DNA from: a phage
Length of the DNA: 64,000 nucleotides
Assembly (NCBI GenBank): GCA_025823825.1
Contig: GCA_025823825.1_4720.1
Direction: 5' to 3' (one strand)
Shown: positions 5,878 through 64,000 of the stretch, one piece after another
How positions within the stretch are numbered: position 1 is the first letter of the stretch
Layout of the letters: each line of letters begins with the position of its first letter
Notes under the pieces: generated by a model
What the model was told of the DNA's origin: nothing
Database searches by the model: none
The model's input: only the letters and a program-made list of their open reading frames with translations
Translations under genes and position numbers: made by a program

Positions 5878-5942
5878 CGCAAAGGTAACATAACCCTCCT
5901 CCTTCCCTCACGGGTTGGAGGAGGGCTTATGCTGTTATGCTA

Positions 5943-19896: not shown

Positions 19897-19989
19897 GATG
19901 ATTTCCTTCTTTATTAGGATGATTACGTTTAGTCAGTTTAACGGCATAAACCCTTCCTGCCTTACGCAGGAAGGGCATACGGATTTGTT

Positions 19990-32906: not shown

Positions 32907-32986
32907 AAAATTGTCAAAATGTACATCGGCATAACGCCCGTGCCCGCCCGTGATGGGAGGGACACAGGCAATACGCTTTTATTTCA

Positions 32987-42558: not shown

Positions 42559-43539
42559 TCAGTAACAGTTATAATGGGTTCCAAGCCGCTCCGGTTTTCT
42601 CAGAAGACTATCTTTAAGCGGTACGACGTCGATATCAACGTTTTCTGAATAATAACCATTAGAACTACCATACCAACGAATAACAACACATCCTTTTGCT
42701 GTACGAATATGGTAAAATGTCCATCGCGTACGTTTGCAAAAGTCGTCATCCTCGTCTCTTTCCTCGGTTCTTTCTTCAGCGCTAAGTATCTTCTCACCAA
42801 TAATGTCGTTAAGATCGCCATCGATGTCTTCAAGGTACACTTTTTCACAGCAATCTTGCTTATGGCAGAATTCAACAACGTTCCCATCGCCCCGATAGAA
42901 AAGAAGGGCAATGCTGTATTGTAGCTGTTCGGCCGTTAAGTCTGTCGCGCAATACAAACTTTGATCTTCGGTTATCACCAAGACATTGTTGATTACGTGT
43001 CCGGCAAGCGCTCCGATCTTATTTACCGTGATAATCGGACGAACGGGTTCAGGTTGAACGATCGGAATACGAACACAACCAATTAAGGCCATCCGTCCTT
43101 TCTTTGGTCTAACCGCAAGGTAAGGTGATTTTCTTGGGTGGTTATGCAGACGTATTTCTAATTCGTCAAATTTAATCCCGTATATACCTAAGAAACGATC
43201 GAACAACCGATGAAACTCATCTGTTGCTTCTTTCAACGTTATGGTGTCTACCGTGAGTTTATGTCCCCTGAACACCCGGGTTATATCGATAACGTCGAGT
43301 GTTTTAAAATGTATTTCCGTAAGGGGGTGATTTGTATTTTCCAGGTATGTAATGGTTCTTTGAACCGCGATTTTAGGTGACGCACCTTTAAAACGTTTCA
43401 GGTATTTAACACGATAGCGTGTATGATCTGATGTTAACATTTTAATCTCCTCTCCCGACTTCAGAGAATTCTTAAAATCCGTTAGTTTTGATAGATGAGG
43501 TAAGACGGCATAAAAGCCTCCCGTAATGGGAGGCTTCAT
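42559..43539 (-). CDS. hypothetical protein (326 aa)
   Basis: Minus-strand ORF. Confidence 0.5.
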   Translation of the reverse strand: MKPPITGGFYAVLPHLSKLTDFKNSLKSGEEIKMLTSDHTRYRVKYLKRFKGASPKIAVQRTITYLENTNHPLTEIHFKTLDVIDITRVFRGHKLTVDTITLKEATDEFHRLFDRFLGIYGIKFDELEIRLHNHPRKSPYLAVRPKKGRMALIGCVRIPIVQPEPVRPIITVNKIGALAGHVINNVLVITEDQSLYCATDLTAEQLQYSIALLFYRGDGNVVEFCHKQDCCEKVYLEDIDGDLNDIIGEKILSAEERTEERDEDDDFCKRTRWTFYHIRTAKGCVVIRWYGSSNGYYSENVDIDVVPLKDSLLRKPERLGTHYNCY

Positions 43540-44792: not shown

Positions 44793-45125
44793 TTACTGAA
44801 ACAAGACATTAAATTCGACGAGATACCCATCGGATCTATCACCACGATATCTGTTGCAGAAAACACCGAATTTCATCAAGAACTCACATAACTCTTCGGC
44901 TTTGTATAGCGGAATACGATTTTCGTCGAGCAGGGGGCACTTATGGCTAACCCGCTCCGACGAATCAACGCAACACAAATAAAGAAGGAATCGAACAATA
45001 GCTCGGTTCTTAGTGAAGCTCTCGAATTCACCTGCAGTTCTGAACTCATCGAGGAGCTTTGTCGTTTTCTTCAATCGTTCACGATCGAGCATGTTAACCC
45101 CAATACGAGCATAACCCTCCTCCAA
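44793..45125 (-). CDS. hypothetical protein, paralogue family member C (C-terminal module only)
   Basis: NRAIVRFLLYLCCVDSSERVSHKCPLLDENRI...GYLVEFNVLFQ aligns with the C-terminus of 43548..44096; start uncertain. Confidence 0.45.
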   Translation of the reverse strand: MEEGYARIGVNMLDRERLKKTTKLLDEFRTAGEFESFTKNRAIVRFLLYLCCVDSSERVSHKCPLLDENRIPLYKAEELCEFLMKFGVFCNRYRGDRSDGYLVEFNVLFQ

Positions 45126-45155
45126 CCCATCAGGGAAGGAGGAGGGAATATGCTG

Positions 45156-51450: not shown

Positions 51451-51516
51451 CTTTATCTCCTTAACGGGTGCTGGTAACGCAGCATAAACCCTCCCCGAAG
51501 GGAGGGCGGTTAACGT

Positions 51517-55552: not shown

Positions 55553-55647
55553 TTAAGAAGCCCTGCCGTCAAGCAGGGCTTTATGCTGCGTTTGTTGCAA
55601 GATCGTATGACGTATATGCGTTGTACTTATTTAAAAAGGCAGAATAA

Positions 55648-57117: not shown

Positions 57118-57129
57118 TAGTTAGCATAT

Positions 57130-57162
57130 CTTCCTCCCTACCCATAACGGGCGGGGAGGAAG
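57130..57162. terminator. bidirectional intrinsic terminator between convergent genes
   Basis: Stem CTTCCTCCC / GGGAGGAAG flanked by A17 upstream and GTTTTAT downstream. Confidence 0.6.
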
Positions 57163-57180
57163 GTTTTATGGCGTTATAGC

Positions 57181-57519
57181 TTAGAACCAGAGTTCTTTCA
57201 TGAGGTAGGCTTCCATATCGTAGATAAGCCACGCATCGGGGATTTCTAAAGGATCGTCTTCGGTTAAGGTCAGCATGTGCAGGGCGAACGCACGCTTGAT
57301 ATCTTCCAACAGCTTATCATCACCGTAATCCTCGGGTAGTTTACGGTCAACCAGCTGGGTTTGTTTATAGACGTCGCGGAACGCTTCAGGGCTGTGTTTG
57401 TCCATCGGGAATTGTTCAGCAGCCTGAACCATCGTCAACGTCCAGCTTACAACATTGTAACGCTCACCGTTAATTTCACTGAACTGATCATCGATTAAAC
57501 AGATTTGTTGTACGTTCAT
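57181..57519 (-). CDS. hypothetical protein (112 aa)
   Basis: Last gene of a minus-strand operon, overlaps upstream gene by 4 nt. Confidence 0.45.
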   Translation of the reverse strand: MNVQQICLIDDQFSEINGERYNVVSWTLTMVQAAEQFPMDKHSPEAFRDVYKQTQLVDRKLPEDYGDDKLLEDIKRAFALHMLTLTEDDPLEIPDAWLIYDMEAYLMKELWF

Positions 57520-58477: not shown

Positions 58478-60052
58478 TTACAATTCAAAATCTTCATCGA
58501 TAACACGCTGGGTAAGCACTTTGTCGCTGAAGAACTCCACCTTGCGCTGATGGTATTTACGGTGCGCTTCGATAGAAGTACATACCAGATACCAGAACGT
58601 TGGCGTCATTCCTTCAAACTTTCCTTTCAGCTGACGCAGTCGTCCCAACACCTGAATGTTACCGGTTCGTGACCCCATCGCTAATGTCATGAACGTCATC
58701 ACCAAGTCAGGAAGGTCGATACCTGTACCTGCCGATTTCACCGTTGTAACGCTAATATCGTTATCCAGCAAGACCATGAAGTCTTCTTCAGCAGTATAAG
58801 GACCGATTTCTAACTCAGGGATACGTTCACTGAGATAATGCGACAACGACTTACACATATCGACGGTTGCACAATACACCAGCATCTTCATACCTTCCTG
58901 ATACTGGTTCATGAAACCCTTGATAATAACGGTATAGATGAAGTTAAAATACGCGAGTTTGAGTTGCTTGTTCTTCATGATAGACTGTTCGAATATCGTG
59001 TGCGAATAAGCTCCACCAAACCCTTTGTATCTGACTTTATCTGTACTGCGTAGTCGGTACGTTACCGCATTTACCGCAATGTATTTCTTGTATTCGCCTT
59101 TCGCATAACGGGCTTCTTTCGGATACATCAAATACAGCATCTGTTCGATAAACGGATCATCGGATACCGCTGTTGCCGACAGATAAATGATTTCCGGAAT
59201 ATTGGCGTAACACTTGACCTTAAACAAGAAATGCAATGCTTCGTGACACTCGTCATGAATCAGCAAACCTATGCCGGTCTTTTCCCAAAACTCAGCGGGA
59301 TGAAAGGCATATGGCGCAACGCAGTTATTCTTCTCGTAGTCCGCAATATAACGTTGGAACATGTTCAAGGAGAACAATGCGATTTTGAAGTCGAGTTCAC
59401 CTTGTTCAACCAAGGTTTGAAACTCCAACATACTGTAACGAGGAATGTCGGGATGCGGTGGATCCTCCTTAGCGTTCCCGCGTATCTCGATAACGTCCCC
59501 TGGTTCCATCCCGAAGAAGTTCAGCAGTGAGCTTCGCCAACCTGGCATGTATCTCGGCGACAGAATGATACCCGTCCGTACACCGCGTCGGAAGGTGATC
59601 TCCTGCGACATGGCCGTTTTTCCTGACCCCGTTTGAGCGGTGTTTAGGCTCATTCTGAAGGGGGTATCCTTACCCCCGTCCATGTACTCCAACCATTCTT
59701 GCTGATCTTGACGCCATGGAAACTTCCATTTCTTTACGAACTCCACTTCTTTACCTGGTACCGGATCGTGATAGACGATTTCCAACCACTCTTTTCGTAT
59801 CCCTCGGGAAAAGATAAAATCCAAAAACGATTTCAACTGTTCACGGAGTAAGTATACCTCGCTATAATCGCTTCTTGCCGCGGCATACGTGTTTATGGTA
59901 TCGGTAACCATTCTCCGTGTACGAGGGTCACGCCGTTTCCTCAGATGCAAACAACGGTCTCGAAGGTAATGGCCGATAAGATGGGCAAATCGAAGTCCGT
60001 ATCCGCTCAGCCTCATGCCGTGCGAGAAGACGTCGATACGAGCTAACTTCAT
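58478..60052 (-). CDS. SF2 (DEAD/DEAH-type) helicase
   Basis: Walker A AQTGSGKT, DExH box IHDECHE, motif VI-like QVLGRLRQ. Confidence 0.7.
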   Translation of the reverse strand: MKLARIDVFSHGMRLSGYGLRFAHLIGHYLRDRCLHLRKRRDPRTRRMVTDTINTYAAARSDYSEVYLLREQLKSFLDFIFSRGIRKEWLEIVYHDPVPGKEVEFVKKWKFPWRQDQQEWLEYMDGGKDTPFRMSLNTAQTGSGKTAMSQEITFRRGVRTGIILSPRYMPGWRSSLLNFFGMEPGDVIEIRGNAKEDPPHPDIPRYSMLEFQTLVEQGELDFKIALFSLNMFQRYIADYEKNNCVAPYAFHPAEFWEKTGIGLLIHDECHEALHFLFKVKCYANIPEIIYLSATAVSDDPFIEQMLYLMYPKEARYAKGEYKKYIAVNAVTYRLRSTDKVRYKGFGGAYSHTIFEQSIMKNKQLKLAYFNFIYTVIIKGFMNQYQEGMKMLVYCATVDMCKSLSHYLSERIPELEIGPYTAEEDFMVLLDNDISVTTVKSAGTGIDLPDLVMTFMTLAMGSRTGNIQVLGRLRQLKGKFEGMTPTFWYLVCTSIEAHRKYHQRKVEFFSDKVLTQRVIDEDFEL

Positions 60053-62055
60053 AACGTGATTACATCCTCCGGTTTAGGTTCTTTACGCGGTAACAGCATG
60101 TAGTCGATCGGATGATCCGGCTTCATGGTTGGGATATAACTGTTCGGGTTTTGGAACGCATCCAGCTGCTCTTGGTGAGCGAACTTCATACTCAAGGAGC
60201 GCATGTTCATGTTCTTCTTGAAGGTACTGAAGTATCGTGTTGTTCCCTGTTTCGGCATGCGATAATCTTTCGTGTGCGGTGAACGAATCATGCTGGCGTA
60301 GAGAATAACATCGAGATGCGAAAGGTTCATTCGCAGACGCTGGGCACACAGACGATGCCAATAGTACAGCACGTTTGCAACTTCTTCCGGTGTTGCTTCG
60401 TCTTCCGAAAGGAATCCGGCACTGAAAGAACCTTTCCCGAATTTGAATTCACGTTCGATTTCTTTTGCGTATTCCATCATGTTTTTGTGGATTAACGGCA
60501 TCTGGAATAACGTACGTGAATTGTCCCAATGTTTCAAGTCGAAAATCACAATCCCGTCAGACGTCACTTCCCAGCTATGGCGTTTAAGATAACGGATAAA
60601 CGCTTTACTCGGTACAACAGGACGTCCACAGAAATCGAAATTGACTTTGAGCTTACGATAGCTTTCATCTTTCCTGTCGTAAATCTCCATATCGCAAAGC
60701 GTCATGTTAAACAAGCGTTGCGGTATCAGCGAACTGATTTCTTCCGCTTCGGCTACGTCGTACAACATGTTCGCAAGACCTAACTTCATCTTAATCAGCA
60801 CGTGTTTACCTTTCAGCTCACGTGCGAGTTTGATGTCGTTCATGTTCTGGCTATAGCGAAGGATATGTTGATATTCCGGTGGGATTGGTGCTGTGGATAC
60901 CGTTGACGAACCATCGTGGTGTTTGGTAGAAAGAATGTTCTGCGTCACCTGTTGCGAACAGGTACGCGCTGCGCCATCGCCGACATTATCAGTCAATGCG
61001 AAGTTATGACTTAATTCACCGTAACACGTTGTACATACCCCAGCAGGATCGGGATGATGACAATAGTTAACGGAGCGCATGCGTACCGTCGTGCCGATCA
61101 ATTCTTTCATGTGTGGTTGTATCGCTACCAACGAACCGTCATCACGAATAATGAATCGACCATGGAAGCCACGCAGGTCGGTCTCGTCGCGGATTGGCAT
61201 CGGGATGGTCTCTTTACTACCACAATCACCAGGATGGAGTCGTTGTACAACCGCTGTCGCTATCTGAAGTTCACGACCGAAATATTCAGACTTTTTAATC
61301 TGCTCTTTGTTGAACAGCAACGATTTTGCCGCAGAACGACTTTCTTTCAAGCTGTCGGGAAGAGAGATCAAACCGGCTGCGTATGACCGCATTACTGGAT
61401 CACGGAATATCTCGGAGTTAATATCGGTCAAGAATCCACGCATCCCAATACACTGCAGCACCTGTCCAATCGAAACGTGTTCGGTTCTTACCGCACGTGC
61501 GATAGGGTTTGCATGTAACGTTTTATCGGTGCTCAGTACCTTTGTCAGTTTCTTGTATGCGCTTTCGATACCTTCACGGGTGGGTTCCGCTTCGGCGATG
61601 ATTTTCTTAACTTCGGGATGTACGGTAATCTGATAAAAATCGTCCGCGCAAATCGTTGTTACGTATTCCTCCAACGCATACGTAAAGAAGTTATATACGT
61701 TGTTGAACATATCGAACAGTGCTTTCCAGAGAACCTCACGATTCTCTTGTGGGTAAGCATACATGCATTGACGATACGCTGCGCTTTGCAACGCAACCGA
61801 CGAACCAGCAGTAAACTTGCGTTTATCGACCAGGTTCTCTTTTGTCAATGGTGTCTCAGGATACATGCGATGCACAGACCAGTGCATGTAACTAAAGAAA
61901 ATGCGTCGCGCACGCAATTCATGAACGCCATCGTCCATCTCGATATATACACGGTCATTAGGCTGTGCCCACTCGAACACCTCATCAACCGGCCAATGCA
62001 TAAGCTCGCGTGCCCTCACACGACGTTTCGTGGTGGTCGTCTGTGTTATAGTCAT
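60049..62055 (-). CDS. hypothetical protein (668 aa), translationally coupled to the helicase
   Basis: Stop overlaps helicase start (ATGA); Cys/His cluster CHHPDPAGVCTTCYG; no catalytic motif recognised. Confidence 0.6.
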   Translation of the reverse strand: MTITQTTTTKRRVRARELMHWPVDEVFEWAQPNDRVYIEMDDGVHELRARRIFFSYMHWSVHRMYPETPLTKENLVDKRKFTAGSSVALQSAAYRQCMYAYPQENREVLWKALFDMFNNVYNFFTYALEEYVTTICADDFYQITVHPEVKKIIAEAEPTREGIESAYKKLTKVLSTDKTLHANPIARAVRTEHVSIGQVLQCIGMRGFLTDINSEIFRDPVMRSYAAGLISLPDSLKESRSAAKSLLFNKEQIKKSEYFGRELQIATAVVQRLHPGDCGSKETIPMPIRDETDLRGFHGRFIIRDDGSLVAIQPHMKELIGTTVRMRSVNYCHHPDPAGVCTTCYGELSHNFALTDNVGDGAARTCSQQVTQNILSTKHHDGSSTVSTAPIPPEYQHILRYSQNMNDIKLARELKGKHVLIKMKLGLANMLYDVAEAEEISSLIPQRLFNMTLCDMEIYDRKDESYRKLKVNFDFCGRPVVPSKAFIRYLKRHSWEVTSDGIVIFDLKHWDNSRTLFQMPLIHKNMMEYAKEIEREFKFGKGSFSAGFLSEDEATPEEVANVLYYWHRLCAQRLRMNLSHLDVILYASMIRSPHTKDYRMPKQGTTRYFSTFKKNMNMRSLSMKFAHQEQLDAFQNPNSYIPTMKPDHPIDYMLLPRKEPKPEDVITL

Positions 62056-62200: not shown

Positions 62201-62686
62201 TTATCCAGCTTTCTGTTGTAAAGCGTATGGATCCATAGCGTCTGACATATCCGCAAAAACGGTGAGAATAAACCCCTTTATCTGTCTCACCTCGGTTACA
62301 CGAAGCCCTTTATCATTGCGATATACGTTTTCTTCACCGACTAACTTTGGTCGAATAACATAAACTCCATCAACAAGCGGGAATGTCGGATACGGATAAA
62401 TACCAATACGAATGATGTTTGGGTGATCGCCTAGAAGGTCACGTCCAAACTTATCGACTCGACCATAAATCGCCCCATCCGCACCTTCCACTTCAATGAG
62501 ATCATTTCGAATATCCTGAAATAGTTGCTCTAACGTGTCGGCGGGATACGCATATGCGACGCCTAACGCCGGATCCTCGACGGTTTTGACACTGAATCCG
62601 TTAAGCCAAACAATCCGTTCATCCGCCCATGTTTCTTCATATACCGTTAATCCATCGCCGTATATGTTGGCGTGTGCTATCTCCAT
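62201..62686 (-). CDS. hypothetical protein (161 aa)
   Basis: ATG preceded by AAGAGGA. Confidence 0.45.
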   Translation of the reverse strand: MEIAHANIYGDGLTVYEETWADERIVWLNGFSVKTVEDPALGVAYAYPADTLEQLFQDIRNDLIEVEGADGAIYGRVDKFGRDLLGDHPNIIRIGIYPYPTFPLVDGVYVIRPKLVGEENVYRNDKGLRVTEVRQIKGFILTVFADMSDAMDPYALQQKAG

Positions 62687-62800
62687 AATCTCATTTCCTC
62701 TTATACGTTAGGATAGATGACATGTTGGATATACGTTGCCTTTGCATATATTGCTTTATTTCCGTCAGAAATAACGGAAAATAAAAACAACGACATAGTT

Positions 62801-62830
62801 CCCTCCCACCTCCACATGGGAGAGGGAGGG
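62801..62830 (-). terminator. intrinsic terminator-like stem-loop (CCCTCCC...GGGAGGG)
   Basis: GC-rich hairpin followed on the minus strand by a T-rich tract, downstream of 62844..63206. Confidence 0.5.
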
Positions 62831-62843
62831 CTATTCGTGTTTA

Positions 62844-63206
62844 TTACTCTATGCTGTCTTCTTCAGCACAATCCTCTTCTGAACCGTCGAACGTTTTCTG
62901 CACTGCAGTGGTATCCCAGTTGGCAGCGTAATCAGCCATCGCTTCGCGCAGTGCTTCTTCACCAGCATCACCGGCCAGGTCAAGCACAACCAAACCTTGC
63001 GCGACGTTTTGAGCGACAGTATCAATAACGGTCGCATCTTCTTCAAAACTACGTACCGGTTCAATGGTGCCTACATCAACAGCATAGTTCGTGGTCGCTG
63101 TAAGCACGGCGACTTGTAGCGCGTCGCTATCTTCATCATGCAATGCTGCTTCAATACCGATTGGACGGGCCAGTTCTTGCAGTGTTAATTTGCGAATTAA
63201 GTTCAT
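62844..63206 (-). CDS. small highly acidic protein (120 aa)
   Basis: Asp/Glu-rich throughout (...DEDSDALQ...GDAGEEALREAMAD...GSEEDCAEEDSIE); paralogue of 63697..63975. Confidence 0.45.
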   Translation of the reverse strand: MNLIRKLTLQELARPIGIEAALHDEDSDALQVAVLTATTNYAVDVGTIEPVRSFEEDATVIDTVAQNVAQGLVVLDLAGDAGEEALREAMADYAANWDTTAVQKTFDGSEEDCAEEDSIE

Positions 63207-63227
63207 TATATTTTCCTCAGGTGAATG

Positions 63228-63578
63228 TTAGCAATCGTTTAAAACTTTTTCGATACGATGGTTGACGAATTCATTGAACGACTCTTCGGCTTGTTCGATA
63301 ATTTCATCAACGTCGATATCTAATTGTTGGGGTTGGATAACATGCTCTTTCATGGTTTCTAGCCAGTATTCGGCTTTAACCATAACGTTAGCGACATGTT
63401 CGACCTGACTGCGTATGTCGACGATCTGGCAGTCAGGATTGTTAATATCGATGATGTGTCCGTGGTGGTTGATAAAACCTAGCTTATTTGATGCCCTTAC
63501 CGCATCGCGGGTAAGTTCTTGCAAGATTAAATTATTGACGTAGTTCACTGCTACGGAACGATTTTCGTTATCACTCAT
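63228..63578 (-). CDS. small acidic protein (~117 aa)
   Basis: Start set at ATG 63578 (MSDNENRSV...). Confidence 0.4.
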   Translation of the reverse strand: MSDNENRSVAVNYVNNLILQELTRDAVRASNKLGFINHHGHIIDINNPDCQIVDIRSQVEHVANVMVKAEYWLETMKEHVIQPQQLDIDVDEIIEQAEESFNEFVNHRIEKVLNDC

Positions 63579-63696
63579 ACCAGGGATCCTCTTTAAGTCT
63601 TCACATTCTAGTGTTAAGCAGTTAAAATAAACCGTTCCTTTAATCAGCATAAACATCCTCCTCCCACCACATGGGCAGGAGGAGGCGTAATATGCA

Positions 63697-63975
63697 TCAG
63701 AAAGGAGGACGATCTTTAAATTCTAACAACGTGTCTTCGAAGCAAGCGATGAGTTCAGACTGCAATTCGGTACGGCCTTGTTCACCGAAGAGTTCCAGCA
63801 ACATTAACCCCCGAGCGGTCTTCGTAGCAACCTCTTCGCAGATGCGGAGATCGTGAACTTCATCATCGTTGACATCTTTACGCAACTGTGCCGCAATGGG
63901 CTTAAGATTGCCGTTTTCATCGTGTTCGTCACGAAATGCATCATAAGCCGCATCGATGTTCGCGATCCGTGTCAA
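63697..63975 (-). CDS. small acidic protein (92 aa), paralogue of 62844..63206
   Basis: TARGLMLLELFGEQGRTELQSELIA aligns with VAQGLVVLDLAGDAGEEALREAMAD. Confidence 0.45.
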   Translation of the reverse strand: MTRIANIDAAYDAFRDEHDENGNLKPIAAQLRKDVNDDEVHDLRICEEVATKTARGLMLLELFGEQGRTELQSELIACFEDTLLEFKDRPPF

Positions 63976-64000
63976 TCCTTCAGAATCCCGCCAGTCTCGA

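What the first reader, a model, noticed from the sequence alone, without database searches (positions are those of the whole stretch)
62844..63975. Paralogous, extremely acidic small proteins in monocistronic units: DNA-mimic candidates
62844..63206 and 63697..63975 are homologous (VAQGLVVLDLAGDAGEEALREAMAD versus TARGLMLLELFGEQGRTELQSELIA) and Asp/Glu-rich; 63228..63578 between them is also acidic. Small, very acidic early proteins are the hallmark of DNA-mimic inhibitors such as Ocr or ArdA-like proteins. The nearby GC-rich stem-loops at 62801-62830 and 63657-63685 suggest separate regulation.
Basis: inference. Interest (0 to 1): 0.45.

Follow-up and report, generated by a model that had tools for sequence, protein, structure and literature searches.

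The report
Acidic orphan proteins in Goslar-like phage
Three small orphan genes sit between two RNA-polymerase genes of a Goslar-like, nucleus-forming E. coli jumbo phage; one product (gp168) is as small and as acidic as the T7 DNA mimic Ocr, but nothing yet shows what it binds.

Summary
The window is a Goslar-like chimallivirus (98% nucleotide identity). The three ORFs are Goslar gp168, gp169 and gp170. All are real genes: they evolve under purifying selection, are transcribed, and yield peptides in published mass spectrometry.

- **Acidity:** only gp168 is extreme (120 aa, pI 4.05, net -21; rank 1 of 86 neighbouring proteins; T7 Ocr is -28). gp169 ranks 7th. gp170 is cut by the window end; the full 136-aa protein ranks 16th.
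- **Paralogy:** gp168 and gp170 share one 38-residue helix-Gly-helix segment. BLASTP finds nothing, but profile comparison gives E 8e-5, no column shuffle out of 300 reaches the score, and the two are reciprocal best hits. This is not full-length paralogy.
- **Stem-loops:** both are real and belong to a window-wide hairpin+TTATGC element. The genes are not monocistronic: gaps are 11 and 21 nt, and read density is flat from gp171 to gp168.
- **Context:** the cassette is a lineage-specific insertion between two non-virion RNA polymerase genes that are adjacent in phiKZ and Erwinia phages.
- **Published data:** transcripts are early-class. gp168 and gp169 co-purify with virions at about 220 and 90 copies.
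- **Family and fold:** no family, fold or homologue outside the lineage was found.

A polyanionic-decoy role for gp168 is plausible but untested. Interest is modest.

The parts
62844..63206 (-). gp168 homologue CDS (120 aa): all-helical polyanion, pI 4.05, net charge -21
   Evidence: ORF; 100% amino-acid identity to Goslar gp168; charge; dN/dS 0.07; peptides in virion MS
62928..63041 (-). gp168 residues 56-93: helix-Gly-helix segment shared with gp170
   Evidence: hhalign E 8e-5; no column shuffle out of 300 reaches the score; reciprocal best hit. AF2 secondary structure gives H58-77 and H79-95 (low confidence)
62847..62897 (-). gp168 residues 104-120: C-terminal tail that varies in sequence but is always acidic (net -7)
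   Evidence: Alignment A1; all but one of the Goslar/L003 differences fall here; charge
63228..63578 (-). gp169 homologue CDS (116 aa, net -12); RBS AAGAGGA lies 9 nt upstream of the ATG at 63578
   Evidence: Absent from the more distant relative L004. About 92 copies per virion-equivalent in MS
63697..64000 (-). gp170 homologue: the C-terminal 100 codons plus stop. The gene runs off the window end; full length is 136 aa
   Evidence: family alignment A2
63742..63855 (-). gp170 residues 85-122: the segment shared with gp168
   Evidence: AF2 gives H83-107 and H109-131 (low confidence)
62801..62831 (-). Hairpin 1, just 3' of gp168 (GCCCUCCCUCUCC-CAUGU-GGAGGUGGGAGGG)
   Evidence: Fold -29.7 kcal/mol, z -5.1; conserved in L003
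63657..63685 (-). Hairpin 2, just 3' of gp170 (12 bp, loop CAUGU)
   Evidence: Conserved in L003 with one loop change. L004 has a different hairpin plus a U-run at the same position
62791..62797 (-). TATGTCG motif 3 nt after hairpin 1
63645..63651 (-). TATGCTG motif 5 nt after hairpin 2
62201..62686 (-). gp166 homologue (161 aa, net -11): the remainder of the inserted cassette
60049..62055 (-). gp165, a non-virion RNA polymerase subunit (phiKZ gp74-like) that flanks the insertion
   Evidence: The virion RNA polymerase subunits are listed separately in the preprint

Best explanation
**What it is (shown).** This is an accessory cassette specific to the Goslarvirus lineage. Its order is gp170 | hairpin | gp169-gp168 | hairpin | gp166. 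It is inserted between two non-virion RNA polymerase (nvRNAP) subunit genes that are directly adjacent in other chimalliviruses. It is transcribed with those genes from the earliest, nucleus-independent phase of infection.
- gp168 and gp170 form the conserved core of the cassette and share one 38-residue helix-Gly-helix segment.
- gp169 is a later addition.
- gp168 is a strongly conserved, abundant protein with a net charge of -21.

**How it most likely works (inferred).** gp168 acts as a stoichiometric electrostatic decoy, that is, a nucleic-acid mimic in the broad sense. Its carboxylate-rich helical body and acidic tail would occupy the nucleic-acid-binding surface of a basic partner protein.
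- The partner is unknown.
- In a phage whose DNA is enclosed, a cytoplasmic host protein is at least as likely a target as type I restriction. Examples are RNA-handling enzymes, nucleoid proteins or RNA polymerase, as with phiKZ Dip. A component that travels with the virion is another possibility.
- gp170 evolves fast and may be a diverged relative with a different partner.
For: **Anatomy.**
- Identity to Goslar gp168-170.
- The two nvRNAP genes are adjacent in phiKZ (gp71/73-gp74-gp75) and in Erwinia phage Simmy50 (gp253-254-255), so gp166-170 is an insertion.
- The same order occurs in L003. L004 has gp171-gp170-terminator-gp168 with no gp169.

**Real, constrained genes.**
- dN/dS is 0.07 for gp168 and 0.09-0.15 for gp169 at dS 0.4-0.9.
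- gp168 residues 1-103 differ at one position between Goslar and L003.

**Charge.**
- gp168 ranks 1 of 86.
- Net -21 is kept exactly in the 53%-identical homologue P0030.
- Size, pI, basic-residue count and acidic tail match T7 Ocr.

**Expression and abundance.**
- log2FC in the ChmA knock-down is +0.6 to +1.1, like gp171 and ChmA; virion genes show -3 to -6.
- gp168 is present at about 219 copies per virion-equivalent, with 8 peptides and 50% coverage.

**Shared module.**

**Precedent.** phiKZ Dip is a lineage-restricted chimallivirus protein that occupies RNA-binding sites of RNase E (PMC4980113). It has no homologue outside Pseudomonas phages.
Against: - No usable structure: AF2 pLDDT was 38.5 and 49.8, and Foldseek found nothing below E=2. 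No DNA-like charge array has therefore been shown.
- No homology to any known mimic.
- Acidity alone is not specific.
- Near-invariance of the gp168 core is not what an arms-race effector typically shows.
- High copy number in purified virions fits a structural or packaged role at least as well.
- The gene context suggests a link to RNA polymerase.
Confidence: 0.3

Rival explanations
1. gp168, and perhaps gp169, are virion-internal or virion-attached proteins. They would be packaged cargo or a polyanionic packing component, possibly delivered with the genome. They would not be inhibitors.
For: - MS of PEG/CsCl-purified virions gives gp168 about 219 copies, gp169 about 92, but gp170 about 3 and gp166 about 1.
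- The preprint lists gp168 among the 12 most abundant unmodelled virion-associated proteins.
- Other modelled structural proteins (gp126 collar, gp146 capsid latch, gp172 baseplate) are also early-class in the RNA-seq, so early transcription does not exclude this role.
Against: - The same preparation contained non-virion assemblies at similar levels: PhuZ about 171 copies and chimallin about 126.
- The gp168 quantity rests largely on one peptide, 228,000 of 301,000 area units.
- No GFP-fusion, localisation or injection test was done for gp168.
- There is no PF12699 or DUF7941 domain.
Confidence: 0.25
2. The small proteins are accessory factors of the non-virion RNA polymerase, acting in its assembly, nuclear import or regulation. 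They would be encoded inside the polymerase operon for co-expression.
For: - The genes lie between two nvRNAP subunit genes and have the same transcript density and class.
- The gp171-gp170-gp168 linkage is kept in the 53%-identity lineage L004.
- phiKZ Imp7 shows that small, lineage-restricted proteins with low-confidence models can be nvRNAP import factors.
Against: - The cassette is absent from phiKZ and Erwinia relatives, whose polymerase works without it.
- There is no similarity to Imp7.
- Insertions into operons are often functionally unrelated to them.
- gp168 co-purifies with virions, where the non-virion polymerase is not expected.
Confidence: 0.15
3. One reading: Ocr/ArdA-type DNA mimics that block type I restriction or BREX.
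For: gp168 matches Ocr in length, pI, number of basic residues and acidic tail. It is early-class.
Against: - No homology.
- gp169 and gp170 are not extreme in charge.
- Chimallivirus DNA is enclosed first in a vesicle and then in the phage nucleus, as stated in the papers read, so there is less need for such a function.
- Virion co-purification is unlike Ocr.
Confidence: 0.1
4. These are spurious or decaying ORFs with no function.
For: They are orphans. Only two 50%-identity clusters match gp168 among 1.84 billion representatives.
Against: - Strong purifying selection.
- Conserved synteny across lineages.
- Peptides detected by MS.
- Good ribosome-binding sites.
Confidence: 0.02

Closest known systems
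T7 Ocr (gene 0.3), DNA-mimic inhibitor of type I R-M and BREX
   Same: 117 versus 120 aa; pI 4.05 for both; 6 basic residues each; acidic C-terminal tail; made early; helical (gp168 by low-confidence prediction only)
   Different: No sequence similarity (hhalign P 0.27; no Pfam hit). Net charge is -28 versus -21. Ocr is not a virion protein, whereas gp168 co-purifies with virions. The target and fold of gp168 are unknown.
phiKZ gp37/Dip, inhibitor of the RNA degradosome (PMC4980113)
   Same: A chimallivirus protein restricted to one narrow phage lineage. It binds host RNA-binding sites, giving a precedent for nucleic-acid-site occupation in a phage whose mRNA, unlike its DNA, is exposed.
   Different: 273 aa and only mildly acidic overall (net -14, pI 5.05). 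No similarity.
phiKZ Imp7 (gp166), import factor for the non-virion RNA polymerase (bioRxiv 10.64898/2026.09.21.753271)
   Same: A small (15 kDa), lineage-restricted protein with a low-confidence predicted structure, functionally tied to the nvRNAP. The Goslar genes sit inside the nvRNAP operon.
   Different: No similarity. Imp7 is not encoded next to the polymerase genes. Imp7 has net charge -7.
Other abundant, unmodelled Goslar virion-associated proteins of unknown function (gp158, gp214)
   Same: Small proteins with early-class transcripts and hundreds of copies in virion MS, with no predicted function
   Different: Not compared at sequence level here. They lie outside or elsewhere in the window.

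Membership tests
Ocr (T7 gp0.3) family | Sequence homology to Ocr (Pfam Ocr model, or a direct profile match) | tested here: not met
   No Pfam family at E<=1. hhalign of the gp168 and gp170 profiles against T7 Ocr gives P 0.27 and 0.59.
Ocr (T7 gp0.3) family | Small size with extreme net negative charge | tested here: met
   Met for gp168 only: 120 aa, pI 4.05, net -21, against Ocr at 117 aa, pI 4.05, net -28. gp169 (-12) and gp170 (-8) do not meet it.
Ocr (T7 gp0.3) family | Helical dimer whose surface carboxylates copy the phosphate pattern of bent B-DNA | tested here: inconclusive
   AF2 models are all-helical but have pLDDT 38.5 and 49.8. Foldseek against the PDB finds nothing below E=2.
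Ocr (T7 gp0.3) family | Inhibits type I restriction or BREX | not testable with these tools
   This needs plating assays.
ArdA anti-restriction family | Sequence homology to the ArdA domain | tested here: not met
   No Pfam, NCBIfam or PDB sequence match.
gp168/gp170 as paralogues of one family | Significant similarity over most of the length | tested here: not met
   BLASTP finds no alignment at E<=100. phmmer with gp168 against 1.84 billion representatives does not recover gp170.
gp168/gp170 as paralogues of one family | A shared conserved module above chance | tested here: met
   hhalign E 8e-5 over 38 columns. No column shuffle out of 300 reaches the score. The two are reciprocal best hits among 87 proteins. 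The Gly positions are invariant in both families.
Chimallivirus packaged or injected virion proteins | Detected in purified virions | tested here: met
   From the literature, not from my own data: gp168 about 219 and gp169 about 92 copies per virion-equivalent, gp170 about 3. The preparation also contained PhuZ and chimallin.
Chimallivirus packaged or injected virion proteins | PF12699 (inner body) or DUF7941 domain | tested here: not met
   No Pfam hit.
Chimallivirus packaged or injected virion proteins | A tagged protein is incorporated into virions and/or injected | not testable with these tools
   The preprint did this for gp60, gp61, gp208 and gp209 only.
Intrinsic (hairpin + U-run) terminators | G+C-rich stem directly followed by a U-run, with a fall in transcript level | tested here: inconclusive
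   - Hairpin 2 passes the consensus scan, with 5 T in 8.
- Hairpin 1 has no adjacent U-run.
- Read density does not fall across hairpin 2 (1.54 to 1.47 reads/nt).
- It falls about 2-fold after hairpin 1 in the knock-down only.
- The counts are not strand- or end-resolved.

The most novel reading that the evidence does not exclude
gp168 is a new-fold, Ocr-like polyanionic mimic that is loaded into virions at about 200 copies. It would be delivered with the genome and neutralise a host nucleic-acid-binding defence or housekeeping protein at the first moment of infection by a nucleus-forming phage. That would make it a packaged mimic. gp170 would be a fast-evolving relative aimed at a second target.
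Probability: 0.08. Interest if true: 0.7.

Novelty: new member of a known kind. Interest (0 to 1): 0.33.

Why it matters
Nucleus-forming phages hide their DNA, so the soluble effectors they still need show where they remain vulnerable. If gp168 is a decoy, identifying its partner would reveal such a weak point in E. coli, a tractable host. It would also add a new fold to the mimic class. If gp168 is instead virion cargo, it belongs to the largely uncharacterised set of proteins that these phages package. In either case the finding yields one concrete, testable candidate (gp168) rather than three.

Tried and rejected
- **Pairwise BLASTP** among the three proteins gave nothing significant.
- **Family libraries** (Pfam, PHROGs, NCBIfam) gave only chance-level hits far below the curated cut-offs. 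An example is RraA at 14 bits against a cut-off of 124.
- **PDB sequence search** gave nothing.
- **tblastn against 50,697 phage records** found only Goslar.
- **Word-indexed protein searches** found only relatives at 85% identity or more, plus a 53% allele of gp170.
- **Exhaustive phmmer with gp168** found two clusters only.
- **IMG/VR scans** found two Goslar-like genomes.
- **AF2 with shallow alignments** gave unusable models, so the Foldseek results are meaningless.
- **Direct comparisons** with T7 Ocr, phiKZ Imp7 and phiKZ Dip showed no similarity.
- **Sigma-70 promoter and terminator scan** showed no enrichment over shuffles.
- **TATG after each hairpin as a phiKZ-type late promoter driving gp169-gp168:** doubtful. 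Their transcripts do not drop when nucleus-dependent transcription is lost, and the element precedes both early- and late-class genes.
- **The longer 142-aa start for gp169 (ATG at 63656):** rejected, because it abuts the hairpin with no spacing for a ribosome-binding site. The ATG at 63578 has AAGAGGA 9 nt upstream.

Full report
**Identity of the region.** The last 2 kb of the window is 98.1% identical to Escherichia phage vB_EcoM_Goslar, a nucleus-forming jumbo phage (Chimalliviridae), at 151476-153478. The three ORFs of the finding lie on the minus strand. They correspond to Goslar gp168 (62844-63206; 120 aa; 100% amino-acid identity), gp169 (63228-63578; 116 aa; 94.8%) and gp170. The third ORF is not complete. 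Its frame stays open to base 64000, and the Goslar gene encodes 136 aa.

**Are they genes?** Yes.
- Between Goslar and a diverged relative (L003, from a Logan assembly), gp168 has dN/dS 0.07 at dS 0.9, and gp169 has 0.09-0.15.
- Synteny is conserved in L003 and partly in a more distant contig, L004.
- Ribosome-binding sites are well placed.
- Peptides of gp168 and gp169 are present in published mass spectrometry.

**Acidity.** I ranked 86 annotated Goslar proteins covering this window by net charge per residue.
- gp168 ranks first (-0.175; the 1st percentile is -0.126).
- gp169 ranks 7th, gp166 13th and full-length gp170 16th. The N-terminal third of gp170 is basic.
- gp168 matches T7 Ocr closely: 120 versus 117 aa, pI 4.05 for both, 6 basic residues each, net -21 versus -28, and both end in an acidic tail.
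- The net charge of -21 is kept exactly in the 53%-identical homologue P0030, so charge itself appears to be selected.
- Between Goslar and L003, residues 1-103 of gp168 differ at a single position. The last 17 residues are rewritten but remain acidic.

**Paralogy.** BLASTP finds nothing between gp168 and gp170, and an exhaustive phmmer search with gp168 does not retrieve gp170. Profiles built from each family do align over 38 columns (gp168 residues 56-93, gp170 residues 85-122), with hhalign probability 61% and E 8e-5.
- I calibrated this score. Column-shuffled gp170 alignments score 11.7 +/- 2.4 with a maximum of 20.2, so none of 300 reaches the real score of 31.2. The reversed alignment scores 21.2.
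- Among 87 proteins of the window, each family's best non-self hit is the other.
- The segment has the pattern VAxxxxxG-hhhLxhxGxxG. Its three glycines are invariant in both families. In the low-confidence models it falls on a helix-break-helix.
- I read this as a shared module, probably from an old duplication, with roughly 0.6-0.7 probability. It is not full-length paralogy.
- gp169 shows no significant similarity to either protein.

**Context.** gp165 and gp171 are subunits of the non-virion RNA polymerase (nvRNAP). The virion enzyme's subunits are gp78, gp196, gp205, gp207 and gp210.
- gp171 matches phiKZ gp71/73.
- In phiKZ (gp71/73-gp74-gp75 helicase) and Erwinia phage Simmy50 (gp253-254-255), the two polymerase genes are immediately adjacent.
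- gp166-gp170 is therefore an insertion specific to the Goslar lineage within a conserved core block.
- In L004 the order is gp171 homologue, gp170 homologue, terminator hairpin, gp168 homologue, with no gp169. gp170 plus gp168 is thus the conserved pair, and gp169 is a later addition.
- gp170 is a divergence hot spot: 53% identity between Goslar and L003, next to a 99.6%-identical gp171.

**Distribution.** These are orphans. gp168 has two 50%-identity clusters among 1.84 billion representatives. All other hits are Goslar-like contigs of about 240 kb found in E. coli, Shigella and Salmonella assemblies or in metagenomes.

**Stem-loops and 'separate regulation'.** Both hairpins are real: 12-13 bp, -30 to -35 kcal/mol with flanks, z about -5, and a shared CCCAUGUGG loop context. 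They are conserved in L003, and a different hairpin plus U-run sits at the same place in L004.
- They belong to a window-wide family: a G+C-rich hairpin followed within 0-5 nt by TTATGCYG, present in at least 12 intergenic regions.
- 13 of 110 TATG-type sites are preceded by a hairpin of -15 kcal/mol or stronger, against 1.2% of random positions.
- The genes are nevertheless not monocistronic. gp170 starts 11 nt after gp171. gp168 starts 21 nt after gp169 with no hairpin between them.
- Published read counts give a flat 1.57, 1.54, 1.47 and 1.63 reads/nt for gp171, gp170, gp169 and gp168. A fall occurs only after hairpin 1 (my arithmetic).

**Published experimental data.** In the ChmA knock-down, which arrests infection at the early vesicle stage, gp168, gp169 and gp170 transcripts are unchanged or slightly up (log2FC +0.6 to +1.1). 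gp171 and chmA behave the same way, whereas capsid, tail and virion-polymerase genes fall by 3-6 log2 units.
- A 2026 preprint on the Goslar virion lists gp168 among the 12 most abundant unmodelled proteins of CsCl-purified virions, at about 219 copies. gp169 is at about 92, gp170 about 3 and gp166 about 1.
- Two caveats apply. The same preparation held PhuZ (about 171 copies) and chimallin (about 126). One peptide also dominates the gp168 signal.
- Early-class transcription does not exclude virion membership. The modelled collar (gp126), capsid latch (gp146) and baseplate (gp172) proteins are early-class too.

**Function.** No family, fold or solved relative was found. AF2 models are all-helical but unusable, with pLDDT 38.5 and 49.8. 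There is no similarity to Ocr, phiKZ Imp7 or phiKZ Dip.
- **Best reading (confidence about 0.3).** gp168 is a stoichiometric polyanionic decoy for a nucleic-acid-binding surface; the target is unknown. Because this phage family encloses its DNA, a cytoplasmic host target or a virion-borne partner is at least as likely as type I restriction. phiKZ Dip gives a precedent for a host target (PMC4980113).
- **Rivals.** A purely virion-internal role (0.25), an nvRNAP accessory role suggested by the operon position and by the Imp7 precedent (0.15), and the specific Ocr-like anti-restriction role (0.1).
- **Shown versus inferred.** The anatomy, selection, expression class and abundance are shown. The mechanism is inference.

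**Verdict.** These are lineage-restricted hypothetical proteins in an already sequenced and studied phage. Interest is modest.

Noticed in passing
window 5895-5934, 19942-19976, 32927-32965, 43506-43537, 45093-45155, 51480-51505, 55557-55588, 57120-57175, 62791-62831, 63645-63685: A recurrent intergenic element: a G+C-rich hairpin, often with CCCTCC/GGAGGG arms, followed within 0-5 nt by TTATGCYG. The TATG recalls the phiKZ nvRNAP late-promoter consensus (PMC4666361). However, the element precedes both early- and late-class genes, so its role (terminator, promoter or both) is unresolved.
   Followed up: partly
window 63697-64000 and L003:10001-10414: gp170 is a sharp divergence hot spot. It is 53% identical between Goslar and L003 (dN 0.41, dS saturated), while the adjacent gp171 is 99.6% identical. 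This suggests allele replacement or diversifying selection.
   Followed up: partly
window 63700-63711 (C-terminus of gp170): All gp170 family members end in an invariant Pro-Phe-COOH (RPPF, RTPF, TPPF). From my own knowledge this resembles the SSB C-terminal tip (DDDIPF) that docks onto many DNA-metabolism proteins. I did not test this.
   Followed up: no
window 62701-62796: The annotated 32-aa gp167 is probably not a gene. Its frame is shifted by a 1-nt indel in L003. It overlaps the hairpin/TATG region and has only about 0.4 reads/nt.
   Followed up: partly
window 57181-57519: gp162 (112 aa) is the third most acidic of 86 proteins (net -13). It also appears at about 127 copies per virion-equivalent in the published MS. 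It is a second small acidic, early-class, virion-co-purifying protein nearby.
   Followed up: no
window 63579-63656: Many metagenome gene calls start gp169 at the upstream ATG directly after hairpin 2, giving 139-142 aa. Goslar's annotation uses the ATG at 63578, which has a proper ribosome-binding site. The 78-nt leader is highly conserved in L003.
   Followed up: partly
Goslar gp126, gp146, gp172 (gp126 and gp146 within the window; gp172 just beyond its end): Three proteins modelled in the virion structure (collar, capsid latch, inner baseplate) have early-class, nucleus-independent transcripts in the ChmA knock-down data. Transcript class is therefore a poor predictor of virion membership in this phage.
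   Followed up: partly
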